Origin: Candidatus Saccharimonadota bacterium
GTDB lineage: Bacteria > Patescibacteriota > Saccharimonadia > Saccharimonadales > JACDBH01
NCBI GenBank assembly: GCA_043743105.1
Contig: JAYTXD010000011.1
Location: 26,001-84,783 of the forward strand
Length of the DNA stretch: 58,783 nucleotides
Reading direction: 5' to 3'
Of the stretch, positions 7,201 to 20,058 are shown in pieces. Position 1 is the first letter of the stretch, and each line of letters starts with the position of its first letter. The notes under the pieces were generated by a model. It was not told the origin of the DNA. It saw only the letters and a program-made list of their open reading frames with translations, and did not search any database. The translations under genes were made by a program, and so were the position numbers.

Positions 7201-8748
7201 CTAGGCAATAATCTCATCACCGAAGTGTTTTTTTAAACGGCTCCGAATGGAGCCAGGGTGGCGGCCCAAAAGATTAGAAAGCTGCTTCACTGTGTTTTCA
7301 GATCCAAACAGATCAATAAGCTTTTGGTCTTCTTTTTTACTCCATGGTTTATAGGCATTCGGATAAGATTCGCGCATTTTCTCTAGCTTTTCATTCCAGC
7401 TGCCGGCTTTAGCCTTTGGCTTTTCTTCTTTCGCAACTTCAGGCTTTAGCCTGCGCTCCGCTTCCCTAGCCTCCCAGGTTTGAATAAGGCCTTGGTTATC
7501 ACTCACAGCAGCGTCACTGCGCGCCCTAAGCTCGGCATCAATCTCGCGCGCAAGCGGTGATACGCGGAGTGCCATACCATTAAATCCATCCAAAATTAAG
7601 TGCTTCAGCCCCCGCACACGGCTTAAAGCCACATATCCCATGCCCTCGACAAAAGCCCGCCGCAGGTCAATCCGTGCGCTGTCGAGCGTCATACCCTGGC
7701 TTTTGTGCACCGTAATTGCCCAGGCCAAACGGAGCGGCAGCTGCGTGACCATCGCCCGTCGTTTTTCGCCGTCAATCAGTTCCCAAGTGTCGGGTTTAAT
7801 TGTCACTTTTCGGCCGCTCAGTAGATGCACCACCGGGTAATCTGTATGTGGCTCAAAGCCCACCACAGTACCAAGACTTCCGTTTACATATTTTTTTTCT
7901 TGGCTATTCTTGATACACATCACAATTGCGCCTTGTTTGAGCCGCAGGGTCTCGGATGCCAAGCATGACCGCATTAGCGTTTCAACATATTGTTTGCTAC
8001 CACTCGTTTCCATCGGATATTCATGCATGTCGGTGGTCAGCTCCGCCAAATGCTCAAGATTAATCTCATCAACATCGGCATTGGTGGTCAAAAGACGTGT
8101 ACGTGGTGTAAACGGGTCATCCAATGCATCGGCACGTGCACTGAGTGCGTTGAGCTGGGTGCGTGTTAAAAATCCGGCGCGTATGCCATTCAGGATGTCC
8201 GTATAGGCGCTGTCATCCACTTGGCGATATTGCTTTTCTAAATAACAGACAGCGAATGCTCCGCTGGCCCAGGCCTGCGAGGCGGTCACAAAACTGCCTG
8301 CTCGGCTGTCAAATCTGCTGACTGGCGGCAACTGAAAAAAGTCACCACACAGCACTACCTGCAAACCGCCAAACGGCCTGTCGCCGCCACGAACTTTGCG
8401 GGCTACTTCCTCAACCATATCGAGCCTAAAGTCGTGCAGCATACTAATCTCGTCTACTATCAAAACATCGGTATTCATAATAGTGTCTTGCCGGGCTTTA
8501 GACAATTTTTGGATAAAACCACGCCCCAGTTCATCCCGTACACCAATACCACTCCAGGCATGCAGCGTATTACCGTTAAGGTGCGTTGCCGCCAATCCGG
8601 TCGTCGCTGTCACGGCGATAGTCCTGCCCTCTTTCCGCGCGCGCTTGATAAATTGGTTAAGCAAGTAGGTTTTGCCTGTACCAGCAGCCCCCGTCAATAA
8701 AACTGACTGCCCCGATTCTAATATTGCTAGTGCTGCGTCCTGTGTCAT
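7201..8748 (-). CDS. Pif1/RecD-family SF1B DNA helicase with C-terminal HTH-like tail
   Basis: 515-aa ORF with Walker A GAAGTGKTY, Walker B LIVDEISM, GDFFQLPPV and TVHKSQGMTLD motifs. The Lys/Glu-rich linker is followed by a WSKKEDQKLIDLF...LGRHPGSIRSRL helix-turn-helix-like tail. Confidence 0.8.
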   Translation of the reverse strand: MTQDAALAILESGQSVLLTGAAGTGKTYLLNQFIKRARKEGRTIAVTATTGLAATHLNGNTLHAWSGIGVRDELGRGFIQKLSKARQDTIMNTDVLIVDEISMLHDFRLDMVEEVARKVRGGDRPFGGLQVVLCGDFFQLPPVSRFDSRAGSFVTASQAWASGAFAVCYLEKQYRQVDDSAYTDILNGIRAGFLTRTQLNALSARADALDDPFTPRTRLLTTNADVDEINLEHLAELTTDMHEYPMETSGSKQYVETLMRSCLASETLRLKQGAIVMCIKNSQEKKYVNGSLGTVVGFEPHTDYPVVHLLSGRKVTIKPDTWELIDGEKRRAMVTQLPLRLAWAITVHKSQGMTLDSARIDLRRAFVEGMGYVALSRVRGLKHLILDGFNGMALRVSPLAREIDAELRARSDAAVSDNQGLIQTWEAREAERRLKPEVAKEEKPKAKAGSWNEKLEKMRESYPNAYKPWSKKEDQKLIDLFGSENTVKQLSNLLGRHPGSIRSRLKKHFGDEIIA

Positions 8749-8822: not shown

Positions 8823-9446
8823 TTATTTTTTTGTAGGTTTTTTATTAAAACCCCTATACGCCAAATCGCGGCGCTTTTCGTCCAAACGTATAATGTATTT
8901 TTCGAATGGTTTTAACAGACTTGAATACTGCCAGTTGGGCGCTAGCAAGCTATCTAACTTATTTTGCTCTACCAGATATTCTACTAGGCCAAAAAAGTCT
9001 CCGTCACCTGATACAACCACGGCTTTGTTATAGTTTGGCATTTCTTTTACGGCATACAGTACCAGCTCGGCGTCAACATTACCTTTGGTAGCTGGTTTTT
9101 TATCCTCCGGCTTTTCGGTATGCATTTTAATGCGCTCAGCCAGCTCGGCCTTTTCTTGATCTGTCGTCTGCTTAGCAAACATCTCAAGTGTTGGCTTTAG
9201 CACTATTAAATACCCCAGATCATGCATCTGGTCATACAGCTTTTCGTTATCGGGCAGATAGCCAATAAACATATAAGCCTTTTCTACATTGTGTCGTTCT
9301 TTTAAATAAATACGAAACTTGCGCCAGTCCATCTTCCAACCCATTTTTTGCACGCCAAGATTAAGGTTTTGACTATCGATAAAAGCATAGTTAGCCTTAG
9401 GCTGCTGAGGTTTCTGCGGTTTTTTGTTTCGCCGGAACGGTTTCAT
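8823..9446 (-). CDS. NYN/LabA-like domain protein (predicted RNase)
   Basis: 207-aa ORF with FIDSQNL, KGNVDAELV and VVSGDGDF acidic motifs of NYN (LabA/DUF88) domains, plus a charged insertion. Confidence 0.7.
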   Translation of the reverse strand: MKPFRRNKKPQKPQQPKANYAFIDSQNLNLGVQKMGWKMDWRKFRIYLKERHNVEKAYMFIGYLPDNEKLYDQMHDLGYLIVLKPTLEMFAKQTTDQEKAELAERIKMHTEKPEDKKPATKGNVDAELVLYAVKEMPNYNKAVVVSGDGDFFGLVEYLVEQNKLDSLLAPNWQYSSLLKPFEKYIIRLDEKRRDLAYRGFNKKPTKK

Positions 9447-10433: not shown

Positions 10434-10862
10434 TTACTTCTTATGCTTGGCAATATAGTCCAAACGAGCCTGGTTAGCGTACTTGTCAGCCATTTCATTG
10501 CCCGGGTCATCGTTGTGGCCACGCACCCATACCAGTACCGCTCTCGACCCTCTATACAGTGGGCAAACTTCCTGCACAATATCGAGGTTTTTTATCACCC
10601 CACCCTTTTTCTTCCACCCGTTTGCTTCCCACGCAATCGACCATTTGGTAATGACATTTATCCAAAACTCGCTATCGGTAAAAATTTCACACTCCTCACC
10701 ATTTGCATCTTTTATAGCGGCAATAATTGCCAAGCCTTCCATGCGTATGTTGGTTGTGTTGGCTTCACCGTCCATTATTGCTGGCTTCATTTCTTTAATG
10801 ACAGCAAACCCCCCATTGCCAGGGTTTGGCTCGCAGCTTCCATCGGTATAGTACGTAATCAT
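10434..10862 (-). CDS. rnhA: Ribonuclease HI
   Basis: 142-aa ORF that aligns by eye to E. coli RNase HI: YTDGSC (Asp), NIRMEGLA (Glu), FTDSEF (Asp), WVRGHNDDPGNEMADKYA (His/Asp). Confidence 0.9.
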   Translation of the reverse strand: MITYYTDGSCEPNPGNGGFAVIKEMKPAIMDGEANTTNIRMEGLAIIAAIKDANGEECEIFTDSEFWINVITKWSIAWEANGWKKKGGVIKNLDIVQEVCPLYRGSRAVLVWVRGHNDDPGNEMADKYANQARLDYIAKHKK

Positions 10863-10877
10863 CTTTGCTAGTATAGC

Positions 10878-11417
10878 CTATAATCCTCGCATACGGCGTT
10901 CTAAAACGTCATAGCCTTCATGTACTTCATCGTTTTTACCTATACCAAGTTTATGCATAAGTCCCCATAACTCAGCAACCACTTTGTCGTGATCTGCGTC
11001 ATCGGCCGTCAACATTTCTGCCTCTATAAATACACCAAGCCCCGGCACTTCATCGTAACAAATTTCTATGTCGCCACTATGTCCTTTTCGCCGGATTTTT
11101 GTAAGGTCAGAATACGGCACATAATGTATTTGCTTGATGATGTTCTCAAGCTCTGTAACATCAATAATTTCAGTCTCATGCTCAATACTATCTAGGTGCC
11201 CAACCACAGAACGCTTGAGAGTAAATATATGTTTTTTGTCATTTTCAGTTCTAATTCTCAACCAATTTGAGTTCAGCGCATTATCAACGCCTCCTGGCTC
11301 ACTAAAAACTCTGTCGTGCTGCTTAATCGGTGCTGATAATTCAATTTCTAGCACTCTAATAGCATTTTCAAGTTTTTTCCTATCTTTAACCAATGCTTTA
11401 ATTTCAATCTCTCTCAT
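10878..11417 (-). CDS. CYTH-domain protein (CyaB-like class IV adenylyl cyclase / triphosphatase fold)
   Basis: 179-aa ORF starting MREIEIKALV, which carries the ExExK signature of the CYTH family. Its start overlaps the stop of the upstream hydrolase by 4 nt. Confidence 0.75.
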   Translation of the reverse strand: MREIEIKALVKDRKKLENAIRVLEIELSAPIKQHDRVFSEPGGVDNALNSNWLRIRTENDKKHIFTLKRSVVGHLDSIEHETEIIDVTELENIIKQIHYVPYSDLTKIRRKGHSGDIEICYDEVPGLGVFIEAEMLTADDADHDKVVAELWGLMHKLGIGKNDEVHEGYDVLERRMRGL

Positions 11418-11977
11418 GTATTTAGCAGTTCCTTTAGCACTTCAAATTTCCTATAAGGTTGATTATACGTACCAGAGCCCATATGACCCTGCCGCTCTGC
11501 AAATATAAACTTGGCATTAAGTTTTTCAGCAACAGGACGTGCCTGCTTATCATCACATCCCCATGGGTCATTATCAGAATTAATTAATATAAATTCTGTA
11601 GCCTTAGTTTTAATAGTAACCCAGTCAAAATTTTTAGGGAGCATACTGTTTTGCCCATCAGACTGCGGTATATAATAGCCCGCAACTAAGATTACCTGCT
11701 TAACTGTAGCGCTTAGACTCTCTAGGATGTTTAAAATCAGTGGGCATGCCGAAGAATGACCAATAATAACCGTCTGCTCATCAACTGGAGGCATATGCAT
11801 CTCAATAAAATTTCTCGTTTCCTCCAGAGTTGGCGCCTCAGTGTGCGGCAACAGCGGCCACCAGACACTATACCCTTTTGATTCTAAATACAGCTTTGTA
11901 TCTTCAAACCAAAAATAATCGGTGTCGCTCCCACCGTGCCCATGCAGCAATAAAGCCGTTTTCATTCTTTTATCCAT
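11414..11977 (-). CDS. Alpha/beta serine hydrolase (YdeN/RBBP9-like)
   Basis: 187-aa ORF with LLHGHGGS, the nucleophile elbow GHSSA and later Asp/His residues. It overlaps both neighbours (8 nt and 4 nt). Confidence 0.65.
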   Translation of the reverse strand: MDKRMKTALLLHGHGGSDTDYFWFEDTKLYLESKGYSVWWPLLPHTEAPTLEETRNFIEMHMPPVDEQTVIIGHSSACPLILNILESLSATVKQVILVAGYYIPQSDGQNSMLPKNFDWVTIKTKATEFILINSDNDPWGCDDKQARPVAEKLNAKFIFAERQGHMGSGTYNQPYRKFEVLKELLNT

Positions 11978-12554
11978 TAGATTGCTTTACCACTTTTTGG
12001 CGAAAGTATATGTTAAGTCCAAGCGCAAAACCTACGAGCGATAGATATATTGGAAACCCAGCGCTTATAAAACTAATATGCTTAACAGCTAAAAATGATA
12101 TGCCCGAACCTACACCGCTAATAATAAATGCTTGCCACCCCTCTTCATGCGGTGCAATCCATGAGTGATAAAATGTCGGGACGGCACCAAAAAAATCTGC
12201 GCTCATATTAAAAATAATCGCGTAGTTGGCATTTTTGCTTAATAACCAAGCAACCAGCCCGGCGACTGATATAACCTGGCTGACAGCATCTATCCACGAG
12301 TAGGTGTGGTCACCATGTTTGAGTGCAAACACGAGAATAGTTACTTCGATCAGCGTGGCAATGCCCGTTAAAAAGGCACTGGTATATGACCTATGACTAA
12401 GTTCCGCTACGGTCGCAATGCCCGTAATAAGTGACCACGTTGCCCACGAAGCAATGCGCGGCTTAACCTTACCCGATATTGTTTCCTTTAAGTACGGGAT
12501 AAACCCAATAGCGGCAATTAAAGGACCCACAATCGAAAGTAATTCTCTCATCAA
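11970..12554 (-). CDS. 7-TM integral membrane protein, family unassigned (possible PQ-loop/SWEET-like topology)
   Basis: 194-aa ORF with seven hydrophobic segments by eye. P-x-polar loops follow TM1 (IPYLKETISGK) and TM5 (VPTFYHSW). It starts 15 nt downstream of the DUF4868-like gene. Confidence 0.5.
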   Translation of the reverse strand: MMRELLSIVGPLIAAIGFIPYLKETISGKVKPRIASWATWSLITGIATVAELSHRSYTSAFLTGIATLIEVTILVFALKHGDHTYSWIDAVSQVISVAGLVAWLLSKNANYAIIFNMSADFFGAVPTFYHSWIAPHEEGWQAFIISGVGSGISFLAVKHISFISAGFPIYLSLVGFALGLNIYFRQKVVKQSNG

Positions 12555-12569
12555 CGTATATTAGCAGCT

Positions 12570-13637
12570 TTAACGCACTTGTGGTGCCAAAAGCTCCTCT
12601 TCATCGAGTGGTTTTAGTGGGCGTTTTTTGATAATTTCAAAGCGTTCCCCGCTAATAGGCGATTCAAAATAATCTTCATTGAGTAAGTTTACGAATCTGG
12701 TCAGATCGCGGTCATCCATAATAATAATTGCACCACTGTCGTCGGTCATAAGCCCAACTCCCATTTCATCCGAGTGGTCTATAAGGTCTTGCTGCTTGAT
12801 CTTGCCCGGCTCGAGTTTCTGCATTTTTTTAATGGTCGATGGCTTGCCTTTTATAAGTGACTGTAAGCTAACACCGTCCGCAAAGCTTAGCTTAAAGTTT
12901 TCCTCTATTTCTTTAACTTTTTGGGTGGCAATACTTGCGGCTTTTGCATCATAACCAAACAAAGCCTTAAGTTTTGCCTGGTTAAAGACAAACAGATCTT
13001 GGCCCACAACGAGTAACTGGTTTTCGCCAGGGATTTTAAGCGCGCTCATTGCATCAAAAGGCTTAAAGATACCATCCTTCAAAAGCCACGCAGTGTGGCC
13101 CTTCATGATTTGTGATGTTGGAATACTTTTGACAAGGTAGAACGGCTTATCCATATCTTTGTGCGTGCAGTGCGCAATAACTCCCTTCATTCGCTTTAGG
13201 TCGTGTTCTTGATCGTTAAAAACTTCAATATTGCCTTGTTCGTGCTTAATCCAGTTCAGTACTTCAACGAGCTTATCGACATTTTTTACTGGTGTCCGCT
13301 GCAGCACATTATCTTCTGACTCGGCTTCTTCAAAACCGCGAACTATCAGGCCTTTTTCTACTCCACCTAATATAAACTCCAGAATTTCGTCTAAAAATAA
13401 GGGGCGCAACTGCCTGGCCACATCACCGCCAAGTTTAGTACGGTACACGGTGTTATTTTTGTTGAAAAAGTATAAATCTATCTTTAAATCATCAATATAT
13501 TGCACCAAGTTATTTGCCCAGGCAAAGACATCGGTTTCTACGTAATCTTTCGACCACGAATTTACTGGCGCCATTATATCTTGGTTGGCGGCCGCACTAT
13601 TTTTTGTCATAACTTCTGTTTGGTTGTTTTCGTCCAT
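12570..13637 (-). CDS. Hypothetical soluble protein, DUF4868/KwaB-like (tentative)
   Basis: 355-aa ORF with no enzymatic motif. The segments IDLYFFNKNNTVYR, KPFYLVKSIPTSQIMKG, LLVVGQDLFVFNQAKLKALFGYD and LLNEDYFESPISGERFEIIKKRP resemble my recollection of DUF4868 proteins. This needs an HMM check. Confidence 0.45.
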   Translation of the reverse strand: MDENNQTEVMTKNSAAANQDIMAPVNSWSKDYVETDVFAWANNLVQYIDDLKIDLYFFNKNNTVYRTKLGGDVARQLRPLFLDEILEFILGGVEKGLIVRGFEEAESEDNVLQRTPVKNVDKLVEVLNWIKHEQGNIEVFNDQEHDLKRMKGVIAHCTHKDMDKPFYLVKSIPTSQIMKGHTAWLLKDGIFKPFDAMSALKIPGENQLLVVGQDLFVFNQAKLKALFGYDAKAASIATQKVKEIEENFKLSFADGVSLQSLIKGKPSTIKKMQKLEPGKIKQQDLIDHSDEMGVGLMTDDSGAIIIMDDRDLTRFVNLLNEDYFESPISGERFEIIKKRPLKPLDEEELLAPQVR

Positions 13638-13645
13638 AAGGTCTT

Positions 13646-13651
13646 ATTCTA
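13646..13651 (-). promoter_or_regulatory. -10 box TAGAAT 8 nt upstream of the DUF4868-like gene ATG (leaderless-type)
   Basis: The minus strand reads TAGAAT-AAGACCTT-ATG. This marks the start of the transcription unit containing the candidate system. Confidence 0.4.
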
Positions 13652-13722
13652 GCGTAAGCGACGTTATAAAGCTGCTGTAAAATTTTCTTTTTTTTATGAC
13701 CATTATTTATGCAGCCGCACCG

Positions 13723-14170: not shown

Positions 14171-14329
14171 TTGGTTATATGCAAAGACGAATCGCCGTAC
14201 GGTCAAGAAGAAATAGCCGAATATGGCTTTGTTGATCCAAGCACCAAAAACGTTTTACCCGACTTTTTGACTACCGCCAAGTTCGACCCAGAAACGCTTT
14301 TGACCCCGCAGATCTTTGACTACCTGTAG
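14171..14329 (+). other. Unannotated 52-codon plus-strand ORF (small protein or C-terminal gene remnant)
   Basis: My translation of the frame starting at TTG 14171 gives ...KDESPYGQEEIAEYGFVDPSTKNVLPDFLTTAKFDPETLLTPQIFDYL*. It is below the track's length cut-off. Its stop at 14327-14329 overlaps the sipW 3' end. Confidence 0.25.
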
Positions 14330-14835
14330 CTGTAGTGCCGATATACATGCTGGTGATCGTAGCGCTTGCTCAAGCGCTTAACTTCATACACCATCACAAA
14401 TGCTGCTGGTGTGTATATAGCAAGAATAAGTCCTATTGGACTATGCAACCAGTCGAGCTCTGCCCCTAATCTTGGCGTAACTTTGTAGACCACACCAATT
14501 AAACGACTAGCAGGAAAAGGCAGATCCTCACGCACCAAGGCATCACCTTTAGTTACTAGCCTACCTGTTTGGTAGTCAACGCGAGCTAAACGGTGCGATA
14601 CCACTACACGGCCATCAGCTGGGCTACGGTAGCTTATAACATCACCAACGCGTAACTTTTGTAAGCTAACACTACGCACCAACACAGCGTCACCAGGGTT
14701 AATAAATGGTACCATGCTGCCTGTTTGTGCACTCAATAACCTGTCCCCTGTTTTGTATCTATAGGCTGCAAACATGCTACTAGTAAGCAGGAAGATAACG
14801 ACAAAATAGATTGCAACCTTTTTAAAGACTTGCAT
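14320..14835 (-). CDS. sipW: Signal peptidase I, SipW/archaeal-type (S26B)
   Basis: 171-aa ORF with an N-terminal TM, the catalytic Ser context TGSMVPFINPGDAVLV, the His context VVSHRLARV and a C-terminal TM. It lies 6 nt downstream of a TasA-like gene. Confidence 0.8.
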   Translation of the reverse strand: MQVFKKVAIYFVVIFLLTSSMFAAYRYKTGDRLLSAQTGSMVPFINPGDAVLVRSVSLQKLRVGDVISYRSPADGRVVVSHRLARVDYQTGRLVTKGDALVREDLPFPASRLIGVVYKVTPRLGAELDWLHSPIGLILAIYTPAAFVMVYEVKRLSKRYDHQHVYRHYSYR

Positions 14836-14841
14836 AGACTA

Positions 14842-15420
14842 CTATGAGGCTTGCGCTGCTCCGATAAAGACAAAGTCTATGTTGCCAAGGCTTGCACCAC
14901 TGCCCGTAAATGCATCTGCTGCCATCGAAATCTGAATTTTATACTGATAGGCCGTTGCGGCTGGCAAGATATCGGTTAAAGCAGTGCCCCCAGCTGCATA
15001 GGTGCTAATAAGAACAGCGAGCGTTATGGTTTGCGATGTACCACCTGGCACGTGTGTGACAATAACAGAAACTTTGCTAAGGTCTACATTACTCAAGTTA
15101 GTTGGCGACGTACTTACTGCCAGTTTAACCTGGCTTCCAGTTGTGCCTGAATTTTTTAGCCAGAATGAATTACCTGCAGCCGGTACCGCTGGCCCACCAG
15201 GTACAACACCAGTGAAGTCAAAACCGGTGTGCGAGCTTGTATAAGTAACGCCATCGGTACTAATTTTAAGGTCGGCTGTAGCACTTTCGATGGTGTTACC
15301 AGCTAGAACTGCCTGCTGGCTTTGCAGCGCCGCAAAAGTTACACCACTTACCAAGGCTACAACAACAACCATAACCGTAAATGCTCGTAATAAAGGCTTA
15401 ACGTTAGACTGCCTACGCAT
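14842..15420 (-). CDS. TasA/camelysin-like secreted protein with SipW-type signal peptide
   Basis: 192-aa ORF with a basic N-terminus and hydrophobic core ending VSGVTFAALQS (SipW-cognate type signal). The mature part is Thr/Ser/Gly-rich and looks like a beta-sandwich. Confidence 0.65.
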   Translation of the reverse strand: MRRQSNVKPLLRAFTVMVVVVALVSGVTFAALQSQQAVLAGNTIESATADLKISTDGVTYTSSHTGFDFTGVVPGGPAVPAAGNSFWLKNSGTTGSQVKLAVSTSPTNLSNVDLSKVSVIVTHVPGGTSQTITLAVLISTYAAGGTALTDILPAATAYQYKIQISMAADAFTGSGASLGNIDFVFIGAAQAS

Positions 15421-15552: not shown

Positions 15553-16875
15553 TTAAAGATCCTGTATATTCACCCGCGTTTGCTCAGTCGTATCGCGGTC
15601 TCGCACTGTAACGGTACCATTTTCTAATGTCTCAAAATCAATAGTAATATGCTTTGGTATACCAATCTCATCACTGCGTCGATAGCGTTTACCAATATTG
15701 CCATTATCATCCCAAATAACTGCACCGTGTTGTTTCTTAAGCTGCATATAAACTTCCCGTGCCTTTGCAACCAGCTCTTCTTTGTTGCGCAACAGTGGCG
15801 AAACAGCATACTTTACAGGCGCAATACGTGGGTCAAGTTTTAACACCACCCGTGTTTCGCCGTTAATTTCTTCTTCGTGATAGGCGTCTGTCAAAACAGC
15901 CAGCAACATACGTCCTACTCCTACGGATGATTCAATCACAAATGGTGTAAAGCGCTCTTTCGTTTCTTCATTAAAATACTGCAAGTCCTTGCCGCTGGCC
16001 TTCATATGCGAACTGAGGTCAAAGTCAGTACGATCATGAGTACCCCACAACTCTTTAAATCCTTGAGGAAACTTAAAATAAATGTCGTGTGCGGCTGCGG
16101 CATAGTGGGCTCGCTCGTCGGCAGCATGTTCGTGCCACTGTAAATTACCTTCATCGATCCCAATTCGTTCTACTAAAAACTTCCAGGCAAACTGGCGCCA
16201 TTGTTCGTATGTTTCTTTTTCTTCTGCAGGATTAATAAAATATTGCATTTCCATTTGCTCTAGTTCACGTACCCTAAATATAAAGTCGCGCGGGCTAATT
16301 TCATTACGAAAAGCTTTACCAATTTGGGCAATACCAAATGGTAGCTTGGCTCGCATTGTTTCACGCACATTTTGAAAGTTCGTAAATATCGAACCAGCGG
16401 TTTCTGGGCGCAAATACGAAAGACTTGTCTCGTCCTCAAGTGGGCCTACCCAAGTTTTCATCATCATATTAAAGACGCGTGGCTCACTTAAGACATTACC
16501 GTCTGGTGACTTTTTGTCTTTTAATAGCTTTGCCAGTTCTACAAGATCGGTTGAGTCAACACCCGCCAGATGATCTGCTCGGTAACGCTTGTGTGTGACT
16601 ACGTCTTCAACCATTGGATCAGTAAAGCCTGCAACGTGTCCACTAGCCGCCCAAAGTTTTGGATTTTGGATAATAGCACCGTCAACGCCGTAAACATTGT
16701 CTTGTTCGCGTACAACCGCCTTCCACCACTCGGCCTTAAGGTTGTTTACCAGCTCAACACCCAAGGGGCCATAATCATAAAATCCTGCGAGACCACCATA
16801 AATTTCACTCGCCTGAAACACAAAGCCACGACGCTTGGCCAAAGAAACAATATCTTCCATTTTTGCATTACTCAT
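15553..16875 (-). CDS. glyQS: Glycine--tRNA ligase (dimeric class II type)
   Basis: 440-aa ORF with an N-terminus MEDIVSLAKRRGFVFQASEIYGGLAGFYDYGPLG characteristic of GlyQS, plus class II motifs. Confidence 0.9.
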   Translation of the reverse strand: MSNAKMEDIVSLAKRRGFVFQASEIYGGLAGFYDYGPLGVELVNNLKAEWWKAVVREQDNVYGVDGAIIQNPKLWAASGHVAGFTDPMVEDVVTHKRYRADHLAGVDSTDLVELAKLLKDKKSPDGNVLSEPRVFNMMMKTWVGPLEDETSLSYLRPETAGSIFTNFQNVRETMRAKLPFGIAQIGKAFRNEISPRDFIFRVRELEQMEMQYFINPAEEKETYEQWRQFAWKFLVERIGIDEGNLQWHEHAADERAHYAAAAHDIYFKFPQGFKELWGTHDRTDFDLSSHMKASGKDLQYFNEETKERFTPFVIESSVGVGRMLLAVLTDAYHEEEINGETRVVLKLDPRIAPVKYAVSPLLRNKEELVAKAREVYMQLKKQHGAVIWDDNGNIGKRYRRSDEIGIPKHITIDFETLENGTVTVRDRDTTEQTRVNIQDL

Positions 16876-19563: not shown

Positions 19564-20058
19564 CTATTTATATTCATACAGCATTAAGCCGCCATTTTTA
19601 ACAGTTGGTACACGGCCAGGGATTTTAAAGGCGTAGCTCACAAGTTTAACGGGTTTATCCAACTCTTTCATAATTTTTCCGTCAAGTTTGGGCATAAACT
19701 TATCAAGCAAAAATACGTAAATTCCATCGCAAGGCGGTAAGGTAATATGCCAATAGTTTCGGCATCGGAAAGTCACTAGTTTGCGGTAACGCCAGCAACT
19801 AATTTGGCTATATAAAACAAGTAACGGATTGAGCTCATACCCAATCCCTCGTATACCCTTTTGAGCTGCTTGTTTGAGAACGCGGCCATCTCCGCTGCCC
19901 AGCTCCAACATAATTTGGCCAGGTTGTAGGTCTAGTAAATCCAGGGCCTTTTGTGCCTGCGGTTTAAGCGTTGGCAAATATGGTGCCCCAAATATAATAA
20001 CAAATGAAAAAACAAGTAGTAAAGCCGTCAAACCAATAATCACAATATTCATACGCAC
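19564..20058 (-). CDS. Class I SAM-dependent methyltransferase with N-terminal TM helix
   Basis: 164-aa ORF with the motif I sequence LELGSGDGRVLKQAAQKG. The start is either GTG at 20058 or ATG at 20052. Confidence 0.6.
   Translation of the reverse strand: MRMNIVIIGLTALLLVFSFVIIFGAPYLPTLKPQAQKALDLLDLQPGQIMLELGSGDGRVLKQAAQKGIRGIGYELNPLLVLYSQISCWRYRKLVTFRCRNYWHITLPPCDGIYVFLLDKFMPKLDGKIMKELDKPVKLVSYAFKIPGRVPTVKNGGLMLYEYK

What the first reader, a model, noticed from the sequence alone, without database searches (positions are those of the whole stretch)
11970..13651. DUF4868/KwaB-like protein plus 7-TM partner: possible Kiwa-like defence variant heading a translationally coupled operon
The 355-aa product of 12570-13637 has no catalytic motif. 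Several segments (IDLYFFNKNNTVYR; KPFYLVKSIPTSQIMKG; LLVVGQDLFVFNQAKLKALFGYD; LLNEDYFESPISGERFEIIKKRP) resemble what I remember of DUF4868, the domain of the Kiwa effector KwaB. A 194-aa integral membrane protein follows after 15 nt. Canonical Kiwa is KwaA (a roughly 4-TM protein) followed by KwaB. Here the order is inverted and the partner looks 7-TM, so if related it is a variant architecture. The pair has its own leaderless-type promoter (TAGAAT-N8-ATG). The membrane gene overlaps a serine hydrolase by 8 nt, which overlaps a CYTH (nucleotide cyclase/triphosphatase fold) gene by 4 nt, and RNase HI follows after 15 nt. This is the most system-like accessory block in the window.
Basis: partly seen in the sequence, partly recalled or inferred. 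Interest (0 to 1): 0.7.

Follow-up and report, generated by a model that had tools for sequence, protein, structure and literature searches.

The report
Solo KwaB homologue conserved across Saccharibacteria
The 355-aa protein is a real but distant relative of the anti-phage DNA-binding protein KwaB, but it is a stand-alone, strongly conserved chromosomal gene of Saccharibacteria, and the 7-TM gene after it is an unrelated, lineage-specific transporter-like neighbour, so there is no Kiwa-like two-gene system here.

Summary
The 355-aa protein is a full-length KwaB homologue. It scores 47 bits on Pfam PF16162 (cut-off 26.3) and matches nine PADLOC KwaB models. Foldseek's only significant PDB hits are KwaB structures (E~1e-12).

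The "Kiwa variant with a 7-TM partner" reading fails.
- The 194-aa membrane protein has a 7-helix PQ-loop/SWEET/KDEL-receptor-type fold, not KwaA's 4 TM plus beta-barrel.
- It matches no KwaA model.
- It is absent beside the KwaB-like gene in all 27 related loci compared, including relatives 96% and 90% identical.
- Its own homologues sit in four unrelated contexts with no KwaB gene.

The KwaB-like gene is instead vertically inherited across Saccharibacteria (49-96% identity). It occupies a fixed backbone: RecO-GlyRS ... RNase HI/NYN/Pif1 ... MraZ-RsmH. Its dN/dS is ~0.02. It carries its own conserved upstream element (TTTACAGCAG-N20-TAGAAT). Basic residues matching KwaB's DNA contacts are retained.

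Its orthologue in Southlakia epibionticum (SEML1_0265) is non-essential by Tn-seq. It is most likely a KwaA-independent DNA-binding factor. Whether it serves DNA metabolism or defence is unresolved.

The parts
12570..13637 (-). Stand-alone KwaB homologue (355 aa). It has a variable, disordered N-terminal tail (~1-30), an N-terminal alpha/beta (Rossmann-like) domain, a C-terminal DUF4868 domain and a short conserved basic/acidic C-terminal tail.
   Evidence: Sequence and fold matches:
- Pfam PF16162: 3.9e-12, 47 bits against a cut-off of 26.3.
- PADLOC KwaB PDLC00233: 2.9e-13 over residues 43-338, plus 8 other KwaB models.
- NCBIfam KwaB equivalog: only 45.6 bits against a cut-off of 200.
- AF2 model: pLDDT 68, pTM 0.62.
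- Foldseek PDB: only KwaB 9mtn/9mrx/9nyu are significant, at E~1e-12 over ~330 columns.
- A wider profile reaches PDB KwaB by sequence at E 5e-16.

Constraint: 1707 homologue clusters and dN/dS 0.02 against L012.
13646..13651 (-). -10-like hexamer TAGAAT, 8 nt before the ATG. This gives a leaderless or near-leaderless arrangement in this lineage.
   Evidence: Read directly from the sequence. TAGAAT/TAAAAT is conserved at the same place in relatives. The sigma-70 two-hexamer scan found no canonical -35/-10 pair here.
13672..13681 (-). Conserved upstream 10-mer TTTACAGCAG, 20 nt before the -10-like hexamer. It is a gene-specific cis-element of unknown function.
   Evidence: With 0-1 mismatch and the same spacing, it is present upstream of the KwaB-like gene in about 18-20 of 29 loci, including L036 at 53% protein identity. 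The window holds a single exact copy, and the 10-mer is at chance level elsewhere.
11970..12554 (-). 194/193-aa 7-helix membrane protein with a PQ-loop/SWEET/KDEL-receptor-like fold. It is a lineage-specific neighbour, probably co-transcribed here, but not a partner of the KwaB-like protein.
   Evidence: Fold evidence:
- AF2 model: pLDDT 90.9, seven TM helices.
- Foldseek: AtSWEET13 prob 0.99, cystinosin prob 0.98, KDEL receptor TM 0.64. E-values are weak, 0.17-0.5.
- No PADLOC hit. Pfam gives only NMN_transporter at 0.32.

Distribution:
- 49 homologues, the nearest 73-74% identical.
- Absent from 27 of 27 KwaB-like loci.
- Its homologues sit in 4 unrelated contexts.
10434..10862 (-). RNase HI, a recurrent member of the conserved neighbourhood.
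   Evidence: Pfam RNase_H 3.5e-30. It lies near the KwaB-like gene in L009, L012, L013, L023, L027, L035, L036 and in S. epibionticum as SEML1_0262.
8823..9446 (-). NYN-domain (LabA-like) protein, a recurrent same-strand neighbour.
   Evidence: Pfam NYN 4.9e-12. It lies within 8 kb of the KwaB-like gene in 17 of 27 loci, and also in L035 and L036.
7201..8748 (-). Pif1/RecD-family helicase, a recurrent same-strand neighbour.
   Evidence: Pfam PIF1/AAA_30 is recorded on the orthologues. It lies within 8 kb in 16 of 27 loci. It is adjacent to the DUF4868 gene in S. epibionticum as SEML1_0264, K15255.

Best explanation
Gene 13637..12570 encodes a stand-alone, vertically inherited member of the KwaB (DUF4868) family. 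It is a conserved chromosomal gene of Saccharibacteria and not half of a Kiwa system.

Shown:
- It has the two-domain KwaB fold.
- No KwaA is present.
- It sits in a fixed backbone between RecO-GlyRS and the MraZ-RsmH cell-division cluster, usually close to RNase HI, a NYN protein and a Pif1-family helicase.
- It is under very strong purifying selection.
- It has its own conserved promoter region.
- The gene directly downstream in this genome is an unrelated 7-TM PQ-loop/SWEET-fold, transporter-like protein. It was gained only in this lineage, at a spot where gene content turns over. The serine hydrolase and CYTH genes are likewise variable.

Inferred mechanism: like E. coli KwaB, the protein probably forms a dimer that binds ss/dsDNA without sequence specificity through a basic channel. 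The candidate residues are K179, K201, K222 and K270/K271. It would do so without a membrane sensor.

My favoured role, at about 45%, is a conditionally needed DNA-transaction factor. It would hold or stall replication, recombination or incoming DNA intermediates that the co-localised Pif1 helicase, NYN nuclease and RNase HI then process. A KwaA-independent barrier to phage or foreign DNA is the main alternative, at about 30%.
For: Homology:
- Pfam, PADLOC and NCBIfam all give KwaB as the only family.
- Foldseek's only significant PDB hits are KwaB, at E~1e-12 over ~330 columns.
- A sequence profile reaches 9o0i/9mrx KwaB at E 5e-16 and 1.5e-15.

No partner:
- There is no KwaA hit for the downstream protein, for ten membrane-like neighbours in relatives, or for ten further membrane or envelope ORFs of the window, including all its other multi-TM ORFs apart from the Pfam EamA-family transporter, which itself had no hit.
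- Mem194 is absent in 27 of 27 related loci. L012 (96%) reads KwaB-CYTH-RNaseH. L013 (90%) reads KwaB-SerHyd-RNaseH.
- Mem194 homologues occur in 4 of 4 contexts without KwaB.

Vertical inheritance and constraint:
- The same backbone appears in L009, L035 (an 804-kb contig) and L036 at 83%, 49% and 53% identity.
- It also appears in cultured Southlakia epibionticum: SEML1_0262 RNase HI, 0264 PIF1, 0265 DUF4868, 0269 RsmH.
- dN 0.021, dS 1.02 and dN/dS 0.02 against L012, the lowest dN in the block.
- It is more conserved than Pif1 in 14 of 15 loci, NYN in 15 of 18 and RecO in 7 of 7. Identities co-vary with these genes, rho 0.54-0.71.

DNA binding (inferred from mapping E. coli KwaB DNA contacts):
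- R142 maps to K179 (19 of 20 sequences).
- R167 maps to K201 (20 of 20).
- R233 maps to K270 (K or R in 20 of 20).
- K187 lies next to invariant K222 (residues from PMC11785009).

Own regulation: TTTACAGCAG-N20-TAGAAT is conserved upstream in about 18-20 of 29 loci.

Conditional function: SEML1_0265 is NE/NE/NE in Tn-seq, with 37-58 insertion sites and flat read counts.
Against: - In E. coli, KwaB gives no defence without KwaA, so activity of a solo KwaB has no precedent.
- No biochemical data exist for this clade.
- Identity to E. coli KwaB is only ~14-17%. The AF2 model is of moderate confidence (pLDDT 68), and the loop carrying two of the mapped basic residues is modelled poorly (pLDDT <50 for residues 177-204).
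- D169 and N134 of the published DNA-contact set are not conserved.
- The link to Pif1, NYN and RNase HI is regional synteny in a compact genome with changing gene order. It is not a fixed operon, so a functional link is only suggestive.
- 'Phylum-wide' rests on sampled loci and hit counts, not on a presence/absence census of complete genomes.
- KwaA was screened for only in the 58.8-kb window and in the flanks of relatives, not in whole genomes.
Confidence: 0.72

Rival explanations
1. One reading: a Kiwa-like two-gene defence variant. KwaB comes first, and a 7-TM protein replaces KwaA as the membrane sensor, possibly together with the hydrolase and CYTH genes.
For: - The two genes are 15-18 nt apart and probably co-transcribed in this genome. 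The next junctions overlap.
- The protein is a true KwaB homologue.
- In a few relatives some membrane protein, each time a different one, follows the KwaB-like gene: L001, L018, L022, L031.
Against: - The membrane gene is missing from 27 of 27 related loci, including the 96% and 90% relatives.
- Its family has 49 members against 1707 for the KwaB-like family, and it sits elsewhere without KwaB in 4 of 4 contexts.
- There is no KwaA model hit.
- The fold is PQ-loop/SWEET-like with almost no soluble domain, so it lacks the beta-barrel that docks KwaB.
- KwaB's docking loop P100/N101/Q103 is not conserved.
- The hydrolase and CYTH genes are variable.
Confidence: 0.04
2. A KwaA-independent, chromosomally fixed 'core' immune gene. 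The solo KwaB-like protein binds incoming phage or foreign DNA and blocks its replication. It is regulated at the transcriptional level through the conserved upstream element rather than by a membrane sensor.
For: - The only known function of the family is anti-phage and anti-plasmid defence by DNA binding.
- The orthologue is dispensable in phage-free co-culture, as expected of a defence gene.
- A divergent homologue, P0175, lies on a phage- or mobile-element-like contig, which suggests a role in element-host conflict.
- The basic DNA-contact residues are retained.
Against: - Defence genes are normally patchy, horizontally moved and fast-evolving. Kiwa itself is 53% MGE-associated and incongruent with species trees.
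- This gene is syntenic across deep branches with dN/dS 0.02.
- Unrestrained, sequence-independent DNA binding would endanger the host's own DNA. In Kiwa that risk is handled by KwaA tethering.
- No other defence genes flank it.
Confidence: 0.28
3. The resemblance to KwaB is fold-level only. The protein would have a non-DNA function, for example nucleotide or ligand binding through the Rossmann-like domain, or a structural role, unrelated to Kiwa biology.
For: - Only ~14-17% identity to E. coli KwaB.
- Well below the NCBIfam equivalog cut-off.
- The most conserved segment, residues 166-209, is modelled with low confidence.
Against: - Full-length collinear matches to nine KwaB HMMs, and KwaB as the only structural hit.
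- Three of the four basic DNA-contact positions are retained as invariant or near-invariant Lys/Arg.
Confidence: 0.1

Closest known systems
KwaB of the Kiwa anti-phage system (E. coli O55:H7; PDB 9mtn, 9mrx, 9nyu, 9o0i; Pfam PF16162/DUF4868)
   Same: - The same two-domain architecture: an N-terminal alpha/beta Rossmann-like domain plus DUF4868.
- It matches collinearly over ~290-330 residues.
- Basic residues at three of four DNA-contact positions are retained.
- The aromatic residue at Y157 is kept as an invariant Phe.
   Different: - No KwaA partner is present.
- The KwaA-docking loop is not conserved.
- It carries ~30 extra variable N-terminal residues and a ~15-residue conserved charged C-terminal tail.
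- It is vertically inherited and syntenic under strong purifying selection, rather than MGE-borne and horizontally mobile.
- It scores 45.6 bits against the 200-bit NCBIfam equivalog cut-off.
KwaA of Kiwa (4 TM helices plus an intracellular six-stranded beta-barrel; tetramer)
   Same: Only that the downstream protein in this window is an integral membrane protein of about 190 aa.
   Different: - It has 7 helices and no beta-barrel or other soluble domain.
- It matches no PADLOC KwaA model.
- Its fold matches SWEET, cystinosin and the KDEL receptor.
- The gene order is the reverse of Kiwa's.
- It does not co-occur with the KwaB-like gene in relatives (KwaA description from PMC11785009).
PQ-loop / SWEET / KDEL-receptor (TOG-type 3+1+3) seven-helix membrane proteins, including PnuC-like transporters
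   Same: - The Mem194 AF2 model (pLDDT 90.9) has seven TM helices.
- Its best structural matches are AtSWEET13 5xpd (prob 0.99), cystinosin 7zkz (prob 0.98) and KDEL receptor 7rxc/8apy (TM 0.64).
- Conserved P-Y and P-T motifs lie in helices 1 and 5.
- There is a weak Pfam NMN_transporter hit.
   Different: - Foldseek E-values are weak (0.17-0.5).
- No Pfam PQ-loop or MtN3 hit.
- No internal repeat is detectable by profile-profile comparison.
- The substrate is unknown.
SEML1_0265 of Southlakia epibionticum ML1 (hypothetical protein, DUF4868; Wang et al., Cell 2023, PMC10633639)
   Same: - A DUF4868 protein of 337 aa in a cultured Saccharibacterium.
- The same neighbourhood: RNase HI, PIF1-type helicase, GH1, YvcK, RsmH. 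This matches L035 and L036.
   Different: - I could not align its sequence here, so orthology is inferred from annotation, length and synteny.
- No 7-TM, hydrolase or CYTH gene follows it.

Membership tests
Kiwa defence system (KwaA + KwaB) | A KwaB component with the DUF4868 domain (Pfam PF16162) above the gathering score | tested here: met
   47 bits against a cut-off of 26.3, E 3.9e-12, residues 163-328.
Kiwa defence system (KwaA + KwaB) | Full-length two-domain KwaB fold (Rossmann-like N-domain plus DUF4868) | tested here: met
   PADLOC KwaB PDLC00233 covers residues 43-338 of a 320-position model. In Foldseek only KwaB 9mtn/9mrx/9nyu are significant, at E~1e-12 over ~330 columns, TM 0.42-0.50. 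The model is of moderate quality (pLDDT 68).
Kiwa defence system (KwaA + KwaB) | KwaB equivalog by NCBIfam NF041623 (curated cut-off 200 bits) | tested here: not met
   45.6 bits. Ten more distant representatives of the clade also score 22-68 bits or nothing.
Kiwa defence system (KwaA + KwaB) | [quoted passage not shown] | tested here: not met
   - No KwaA hit for the 194-aa protein.
- No KwaA hit for ten membrane-like neighbours in relatives.
- No KwaA hit for ten further membrane or envelope ORFs of the window.
- The 194-aa protein has 7 helices and a SWEET/PQ-loop-like fold.
- It lies downstream of the KwaB-like gene, not upstream.
Kiwa defence system (KwaA + KwaB) | Conserved co-occurrence of the two genes across relatives | tested here: not met
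   0 of 27 related KwaB-like loci carry the membrane gene. 0 of 4 membrane-gene contexts carry KwaB.
Kiwa defence system (KwaA + KwaB) | KwaB residues that dock KwaA (P100/N101/Q103 loop; R35, Y157) | tested here: inconclusive
   P100/N101/Q103 map to Q134/G135/E138 and are not conserved. Y157 maps to invariant F191 and R35 to K68. Interface residues can co-vary with a partner, so this is weak evidence on its own.
Kiwa defence system (KwaA + KwaB) | DNA-contact residues of the DUF4868 channel (R142, R167, K187, R233, N134, D169) | tested here: inconclusive
   R142 maps to K179, R167 to K201 and R233 to K270, all conserved as basic residues. K187 aligns to A221, beside invariant K222. N134 and D169 are not conserved. 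The alignment is at ~14% identity.
Kiwa defence system (KwaA + KwaB) | Patchy, horizontally transferred, frequently MGE-associated distribution | tested here: not met
   The chromosomal backbone is syntenic across 49-96% identity. dN/dS is 0.02. Identities co-vary with neighbouring core genes. This contrasts with the description of Kiwa in PMC11785009.
Kiwa defence system (KwaA + KwaB) | Protection against phage or plasmid | not testable with these tools
   The only related experimental datum is that the S. epibionticum orthologue is non-essential in phage-free co-culture.
PQ-loop / SWEET-type 7-TM proteins (for the 194-aa neighbour) | Seven TM helices in a 3+1+3 arrangement with structural similarity to SWEET, cystinosin or the KDEL receptor | tested here: met
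   AF2 pLDDT 90.9 with helices 2-26, 33-52, 56-79, 86-104, 108-132, 139-154 and 161-187. Foldseek prob 0.96-0.99 and TM up to 0.64, but E-values of only 0.17-0.5.
PQ-loop / SWEET-type 7-TM proteins (for the 194-aa neighbour) | Sequence-level membership (Pfam PQ-loop or MtN3 hit, or a detectable internal repeat) | tested here: not met
   Pfam gives only NMN_transporter at E 0.32. hhalign of the N-half against the C-half finds nothing.

The most novel reading that the evidence does not exclude
DUF4868/KwaB may have a second life outside Kiwa. In Saccharibacteria a KwaA-independent KwaB is a vertically inherited, strongly constrained chromosomal gene with its own conserved operator-like element (TTTACAGCAG-N20-TAGAAT). 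It would act either as a cellular DNA-handling factor working with Pif1, NYN and RNase HI, or as a hard-wired phylum-level immune gene. It could represent either the ancestral cellular form from which the Kiwa effector was recruited, or a domesticated effector.
Probability: 0.35. Interest if true: 0.65.

Novelty: new variant of a known kind. Interest (0 to 1): 0.45.

Why it matters
For the scan, this removes a false 'new defence architecture'. The gene pair is a chance adjacency in one lineage, so annotation pipelines should not call Kiwa here.

The finding also has a positive side. KwaB is known only as the effector of a mobile two-gene anti-phage system, and it is inactive without KwaA. A solo KwaB clade that is syntenic, under dN/dS ~0.02 and conserved across a whole ultrasmall-genome phylum implies that the fold can work without a membrane sensor. 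Either it has a cellular DNA-metabolism role, or Saccharibacteria carry a fixed innate immune gene.

Both ideas can be tested directly. S. epibionticum is genetically tractable, and its orthologue (SEML1_0265) tolerates disruption.

Tried and rejected
1. A PDB sequence search with the narrow Saccharibacterial profile (A1) did not reach KwaB. A wider profile (A4) did.
2. Viral-contig scans found no relatives, using P0175 and A1. A4 was too divergent to yield search patterns. So IMG/VR gives no support for phage-borne copies, although L037 looks like a mobile element.
3. I looked for a regulon of the TTTACAGCAG element. The window has only the one exact copy, and near-matches are at chance level.
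4. The canonical sigma-70 -35/-10 scan found nothing upstream of the gene. TTTACA lies 24 nt from TAGAAT, too far for a standard -35.
5. I tested whether different membrane proteins next to the gene in other lineages might be cryptic KwaAs. None hit any KwaA model.
6. I looked for an internal 3+1+3 sequence repeat in Mem194. None is detectable.
7. I considered horizontal acquisition of Mem194 from its composition. Its GC3 of 0.41 is within the window's 0.43 +/- 0.07, so this is uninformative.
8. I tried GlyRS as a conservation yardstick and rejected it, because it behaves anomalously (see the notes).
9. Literature: no paper in the library links DUF4868 or KwaB with Saccharibacteria or Patescibacteria.
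Full report
**1. Observation**

The ORFs and junctions are exactly as described.
- A 355-aa ORF lies at 13637..12570 (-).
- A hydrophobic 194-aa ORF lies at 12554..11970. Its start is more likely ATG 12551, because the public gene call for the identical protein is 193 aa (P0121).
- The membrane ORF overlaps a Ser_hydrolase gene by 8 nt.
- The Ser_hydrolase gene overlaps a CYTH gene by 4 nt.
- RNase HI follows 15 nt later.
- TAGAAT (13651..13646) precedes the ATG by 8 nt.

Pfam confirms the Ser_hydrolase, CYTH and RNase_H identities. The CYTH protein also passes the NCBIfam class IV adenylate cyclase (CyaB) cut-off.

The window is a compact Saccharibacteria-type chromosome segment with 52 of 57 genes on the same strand. 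Co-orientation is therefore a genome property. The run of four very tight junctions still suggests local co-transcription.

**2. The 355-aa protein is a genuine, distant KwaB homologue**

- Pfam PF16162 (KwaB/DUF4868) scores 47 bits against a cut-off of 26.3.
- Nine PADLOC KwaB models match. The best covers residues 43-338 of a 320-position model.
- NCBIfam's KwaB equivalog matches collinearly, but at 45.6 bits against a cut-off of 200.
- An AF2 model (pLDDT 68, pTM 0.62) finds only KwaB structures as significant PDB matches. These are 9mtn, 9mrx and 9nyu, at E~1e-12, prob 1.0, ~330 aligned columns and 16-17% identity.
- A profile of diverse family members reaches PDB KwaB by sequence alone, at E 5e-16 and 1.5e-15.

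**3. The 194-aa neighbour is 7-TM but is not a KwaA analogue**

According to the Kiwa structural study, KwaA has four TM helices plus an intracellular six-stranded beta-barrel that docks KwaB. Deleting either gene abolishes defence (PMC11785009).

The 194-aa protein differs from KwaA in the following ways.
- It matches no PADLOC model.
- Its high-confidence model (pLDDT 90.9) is seven helices with almost no soluble part.
- Its best structural matches are AtSWEET13, cystinosin and the KDEL receptor, at prob 0.96-0.99 and TM up to 0.64. E-values are weak, 0.17-0.5.
- At the sequence level there is only a 0.32 hit to the PnuC-type NMN_transporter family.
- No internal repeat is detectable.

It is best described as an uncharacterised transporter-type membrane protein with a PQ-loop/SWEET-like fold.

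**4. The pair is not conserved**

- The KwaB-like protein has 1707 homologue clusters. The top 120 are 66-96% identical.
- The membrane protein has 49. Apart from the window's own protein, the nearest is 73-74% identical.

I mapped the window's genes onto 27 related loci, four from contig look-ups and 23 from a scan of species-representative genomes. All are Saccharibacteria/Saccharimonadales MAGs. The membrane gene is absent from every one.
- The 96% relative L012 reads KwaB-like, CYTH, RNase H, EamA, NYN, Pif1.
- The 90% relative L013 reads KwaB-like, Ser_hydrolase, RNase H.
- The 83% relative L009 has CYTH upstream and RNase H directly downstream.

Conversely, four homologues of the membrane protein (54-74% identity) lie in unrelated contexts with no KwaB gene. 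The contexts are RidA/methyltransferase, FMN_red/RibD_C, an HTH/AHSA1 region, and GrpE-DnaK-DnaJ-RimK.

The immediate neighbours of the KwaB-like gene are heterogeneous across loci. None of ten membrane-like neighbours matches KwaA, and none of ten further membrane or envelope ORFs of the window does either. The slot just downstream of the KwaB-like gene is a place where gene content turns over, and the 7-TM gene is a lineage-specific occupant.

**5. What the KwaB-like gene is instead**

It sits in a deeply conserved chromosomal backbone. The order is ExoVII, response regulator, RecO, GlyRS, then a variable stretch, then [RNase HI, NYN, Pif1-family helicase, KwaB-like in varying order], then a variable stretch, then MraZ, RsmH, FtsL-like, PBP.

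- This order is seen in the window and in L009 (83%).
- It is seen in L035, which lies on an 804-kb contig (49% identity), and in L036, an NCBI Saccharibacteria MAG (53% identity).
- It is also seen in the cultured Southlakia epibionticum ML1. There SEML1_0265 is annotated DUF4868 and is flanked by RNase HI (0262), a PIF1-type helicase (0264), GH1 (0266), YvcK (0267) and RsmH (0269) (PMC10633639 supplementary tables).
- NYN lies within 8 kb in 17 of 27 loci and Pif1 in 16 of 27.

Selection is strongly purifying.
- Against L012, dN = 0.021, dS = 1.02 and dN/dS = 0.02, the lowest dN in the block.
- The protein is more conserved than Pif1 in 14 of 15 loci, NYN in 15 of 18, RecO in 7 of 7 and RsmH in 8 of 10.
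- Its identity co-varies with those of Pif1, NYN, MraZ and RecO (rho 0.54-0.71), as expected for vertical descent.

This is the opposite of canonical Kiwa, which is horizontally mobile, ~53% MGE-associated and incongruent with host phylogeny.

At 50% clustering the family comprises only 165 representative clusters. The intermediate representative I followed up (P0175) again has Saccharibacterial or Patescibacterial relatives.

**6. Regulation**

The gene has its own conserved upstream region: the 10-mer TTTACAGCAG, 20 nt of variable sequence, then TAGAAT/TAAAAT.
- It is found with 0-1 mismatch in about 18-20 of 29 loci, including L036 at 53% protein identity.
- The 10-mer is not enriched elsewhere, so it is gene-specific.
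- It is too far from the -10 (24 nt from TTTACA) to be a standard -35, and the sigma-70 scan finds no canonical promoter there.
Other lineages have leaders of 40-150 nt.

What binds the 10-mer is unknown.

**7. Likely mechanism (inference)**

I recovered the E. coli KwaB sequence from the PDB alignment. Its numbering was verified on N134, R142, R167, D169, K187 and R233. I then mapped the published DNA-contact residues onto the family.

| E. coli KwaB residue | Residue in this family | Conservation |
|---|---|---|
| R142 | K179 | 19 of 20 sequences |
| R167 | K201 | 20 of 20 |
| R233 | K270 | K or R in 20 of 20; K271 invariant |
| K187 | A221 | invariant K222 next door |
| N134 | S171 | not conserved |
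| D169 | P203 | D not retained; Pro invariant within the family |

The KwaA-docking loop P100/N101/Q103 is not conserved.

The segment equivalent to KwaB's flexible DE loop (residues ~166-209) is the most invariant part of the family, yet it is modelled with low confidence. That pattern fits a surface that becomes ordered on binding.

I therefore propose a KwaA-independent, KwaB-type DNA-binding dimer.

Tn-seq in S. epibionticum calls the orthologue non-essential at all three time points. It has 37-58 insertion sites and flat read counts. The function is therefore conditional.

Two roles remain open.
- **A DNA-transaction role**, acting on replication, recombination or incoming DNA intermediates together with the co-localised Pif1, NYN and RNase HI. 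I favour this because of the phylum-wide vertical conservation and the fixed, DNA-metabolism-rich neighbourhood.
- **A hard-wired, sensor-less barrier to foreign DNA.** This is favoured by the family's only known function and by a divergent copy (P0175) on a contig with phage or mobile-element content. That content includes an FtsK/SpoIIIE-exonuclease fusion, a tail-like protein and a ParB-like protein.

The present data do not decide between them.

**8. Comparison and novelty**

The protein belongs to the DUF4868/KwaB family at the domain and fold level. It fails the defining features of the Kiwa system: no KwaA, no conserved pairing, not an NCBIfam equivalog, and not mobile.

Public annotations already label relatives 'DUF4868 domain-containing protein' or 'KwaB-like domain-containing protein [Candidatus Saccharibacteria]'. 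The domain call is therefore not new.

I found no published description of a solo, vertically inherited, strongly constrained KwaB clade spanning Saccharibacteria with its own conserved cis-element. I rate it a new variant of a known kind, of moderate interest. The specific claim handed to me, a Kiwa-like variant with a 7-TM partner, is not supported.

**9. Limits**

- The claim of conservation 'across Saccharibacteria' rests on sampled loci, hit counts and one cultured genome, not on a completeness-controlled census.
- KwaA was excluded only within the window and the locus flanks.
- The residue mapping is at ~14% identity on a moderate-confidence model.
- The SEML1_0265 sequence itself was not available to align.

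Noticed in passing
window 13672-13681 (-) and 13646-13651 (-); the same element lies upstream of the KwaB-like gene in L001, L003, L009, L012, L013, L015, L016, L019, L022-L025, L027, L031, L034, L036: A gene-specific conserved cis-element, TTTACAGCAG-N20-TAGAAT. The 10-mer is 24 nt from the -10-like hexamer when counted from TTTACA, which is too far for a normal -35. It is at chance frequency elsewhere. It could be an operator or a site for an alternative sigma factor, and its binder is unknown.
   Followed up: partly
L037:8001-8963 (protein P0175) and flanks L037:1-16963: A divergent KwaB-like gene (37% identical to the window's) sits among many small overlapping unannotated ORFs. Neighbours include an FtsK/SpoIIIE-PD-(D/E)XK exonuclease fusion, a tail-like protein, a ParB-like/methyltransferase protein and a strong PHROG of unknown function. 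The context looks like a phage or mobile element. The IMG/VR scans found no relatives.
   Followed up: partly
window 15553-16875 (-) GlyRS: The window's GlyRS is 75% identical to that of the distant L035 but only 52-54% identical to those of L009 and L013. By every other gene, L009 and L013 are far closer relatives. This suggests two GlyRS types and a replacement within Saccharibacteria.
   Followed up: no
window 10878-11417 (-): The CYTH protein passes the NCBIfam TIGR00318 class IV adenylate cyclase (CyaB) cut-off, at 71.4 against 57.95 bits. Its position relative to the KwaB-like gene changes between close relatives: downstream in the window and L012, upstream in L009, absent in L013.
   Followed up: partly
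window 14320-14835 (-) and 14842-15420 (-): An archaeal/SipW-type signal peptidase I (TIGR02228, 5.8e-18) lies next to a 192-aa secreted or membrane-anchored Ala/Thr/Gly-rich protein with no family hit. The pair is conserved in L009 and L013. It resembles SipW-plus-cognate-substrate arrangements.
   Followed up: no
window 19564-20058 (-): A 164-aa ORF gives a PADLOC hit to mad2 (MADS system component, 8.8e-10) and weak hits to type II methyltransferases. It may simply be a small methyltransferase-like protein.
   Followed up: no
window 12570-12620 (-), protein residues ~338-355: The KwaB-like family carries a conserved C-terminal tail that E. coli KwaB lacks. It consists of a basic patch (KKRPLKP) and then an acidic D/E-E-E cluster, and it is predicted to be disordered. 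It may be a short linear interaction motif.
   Followed up: no
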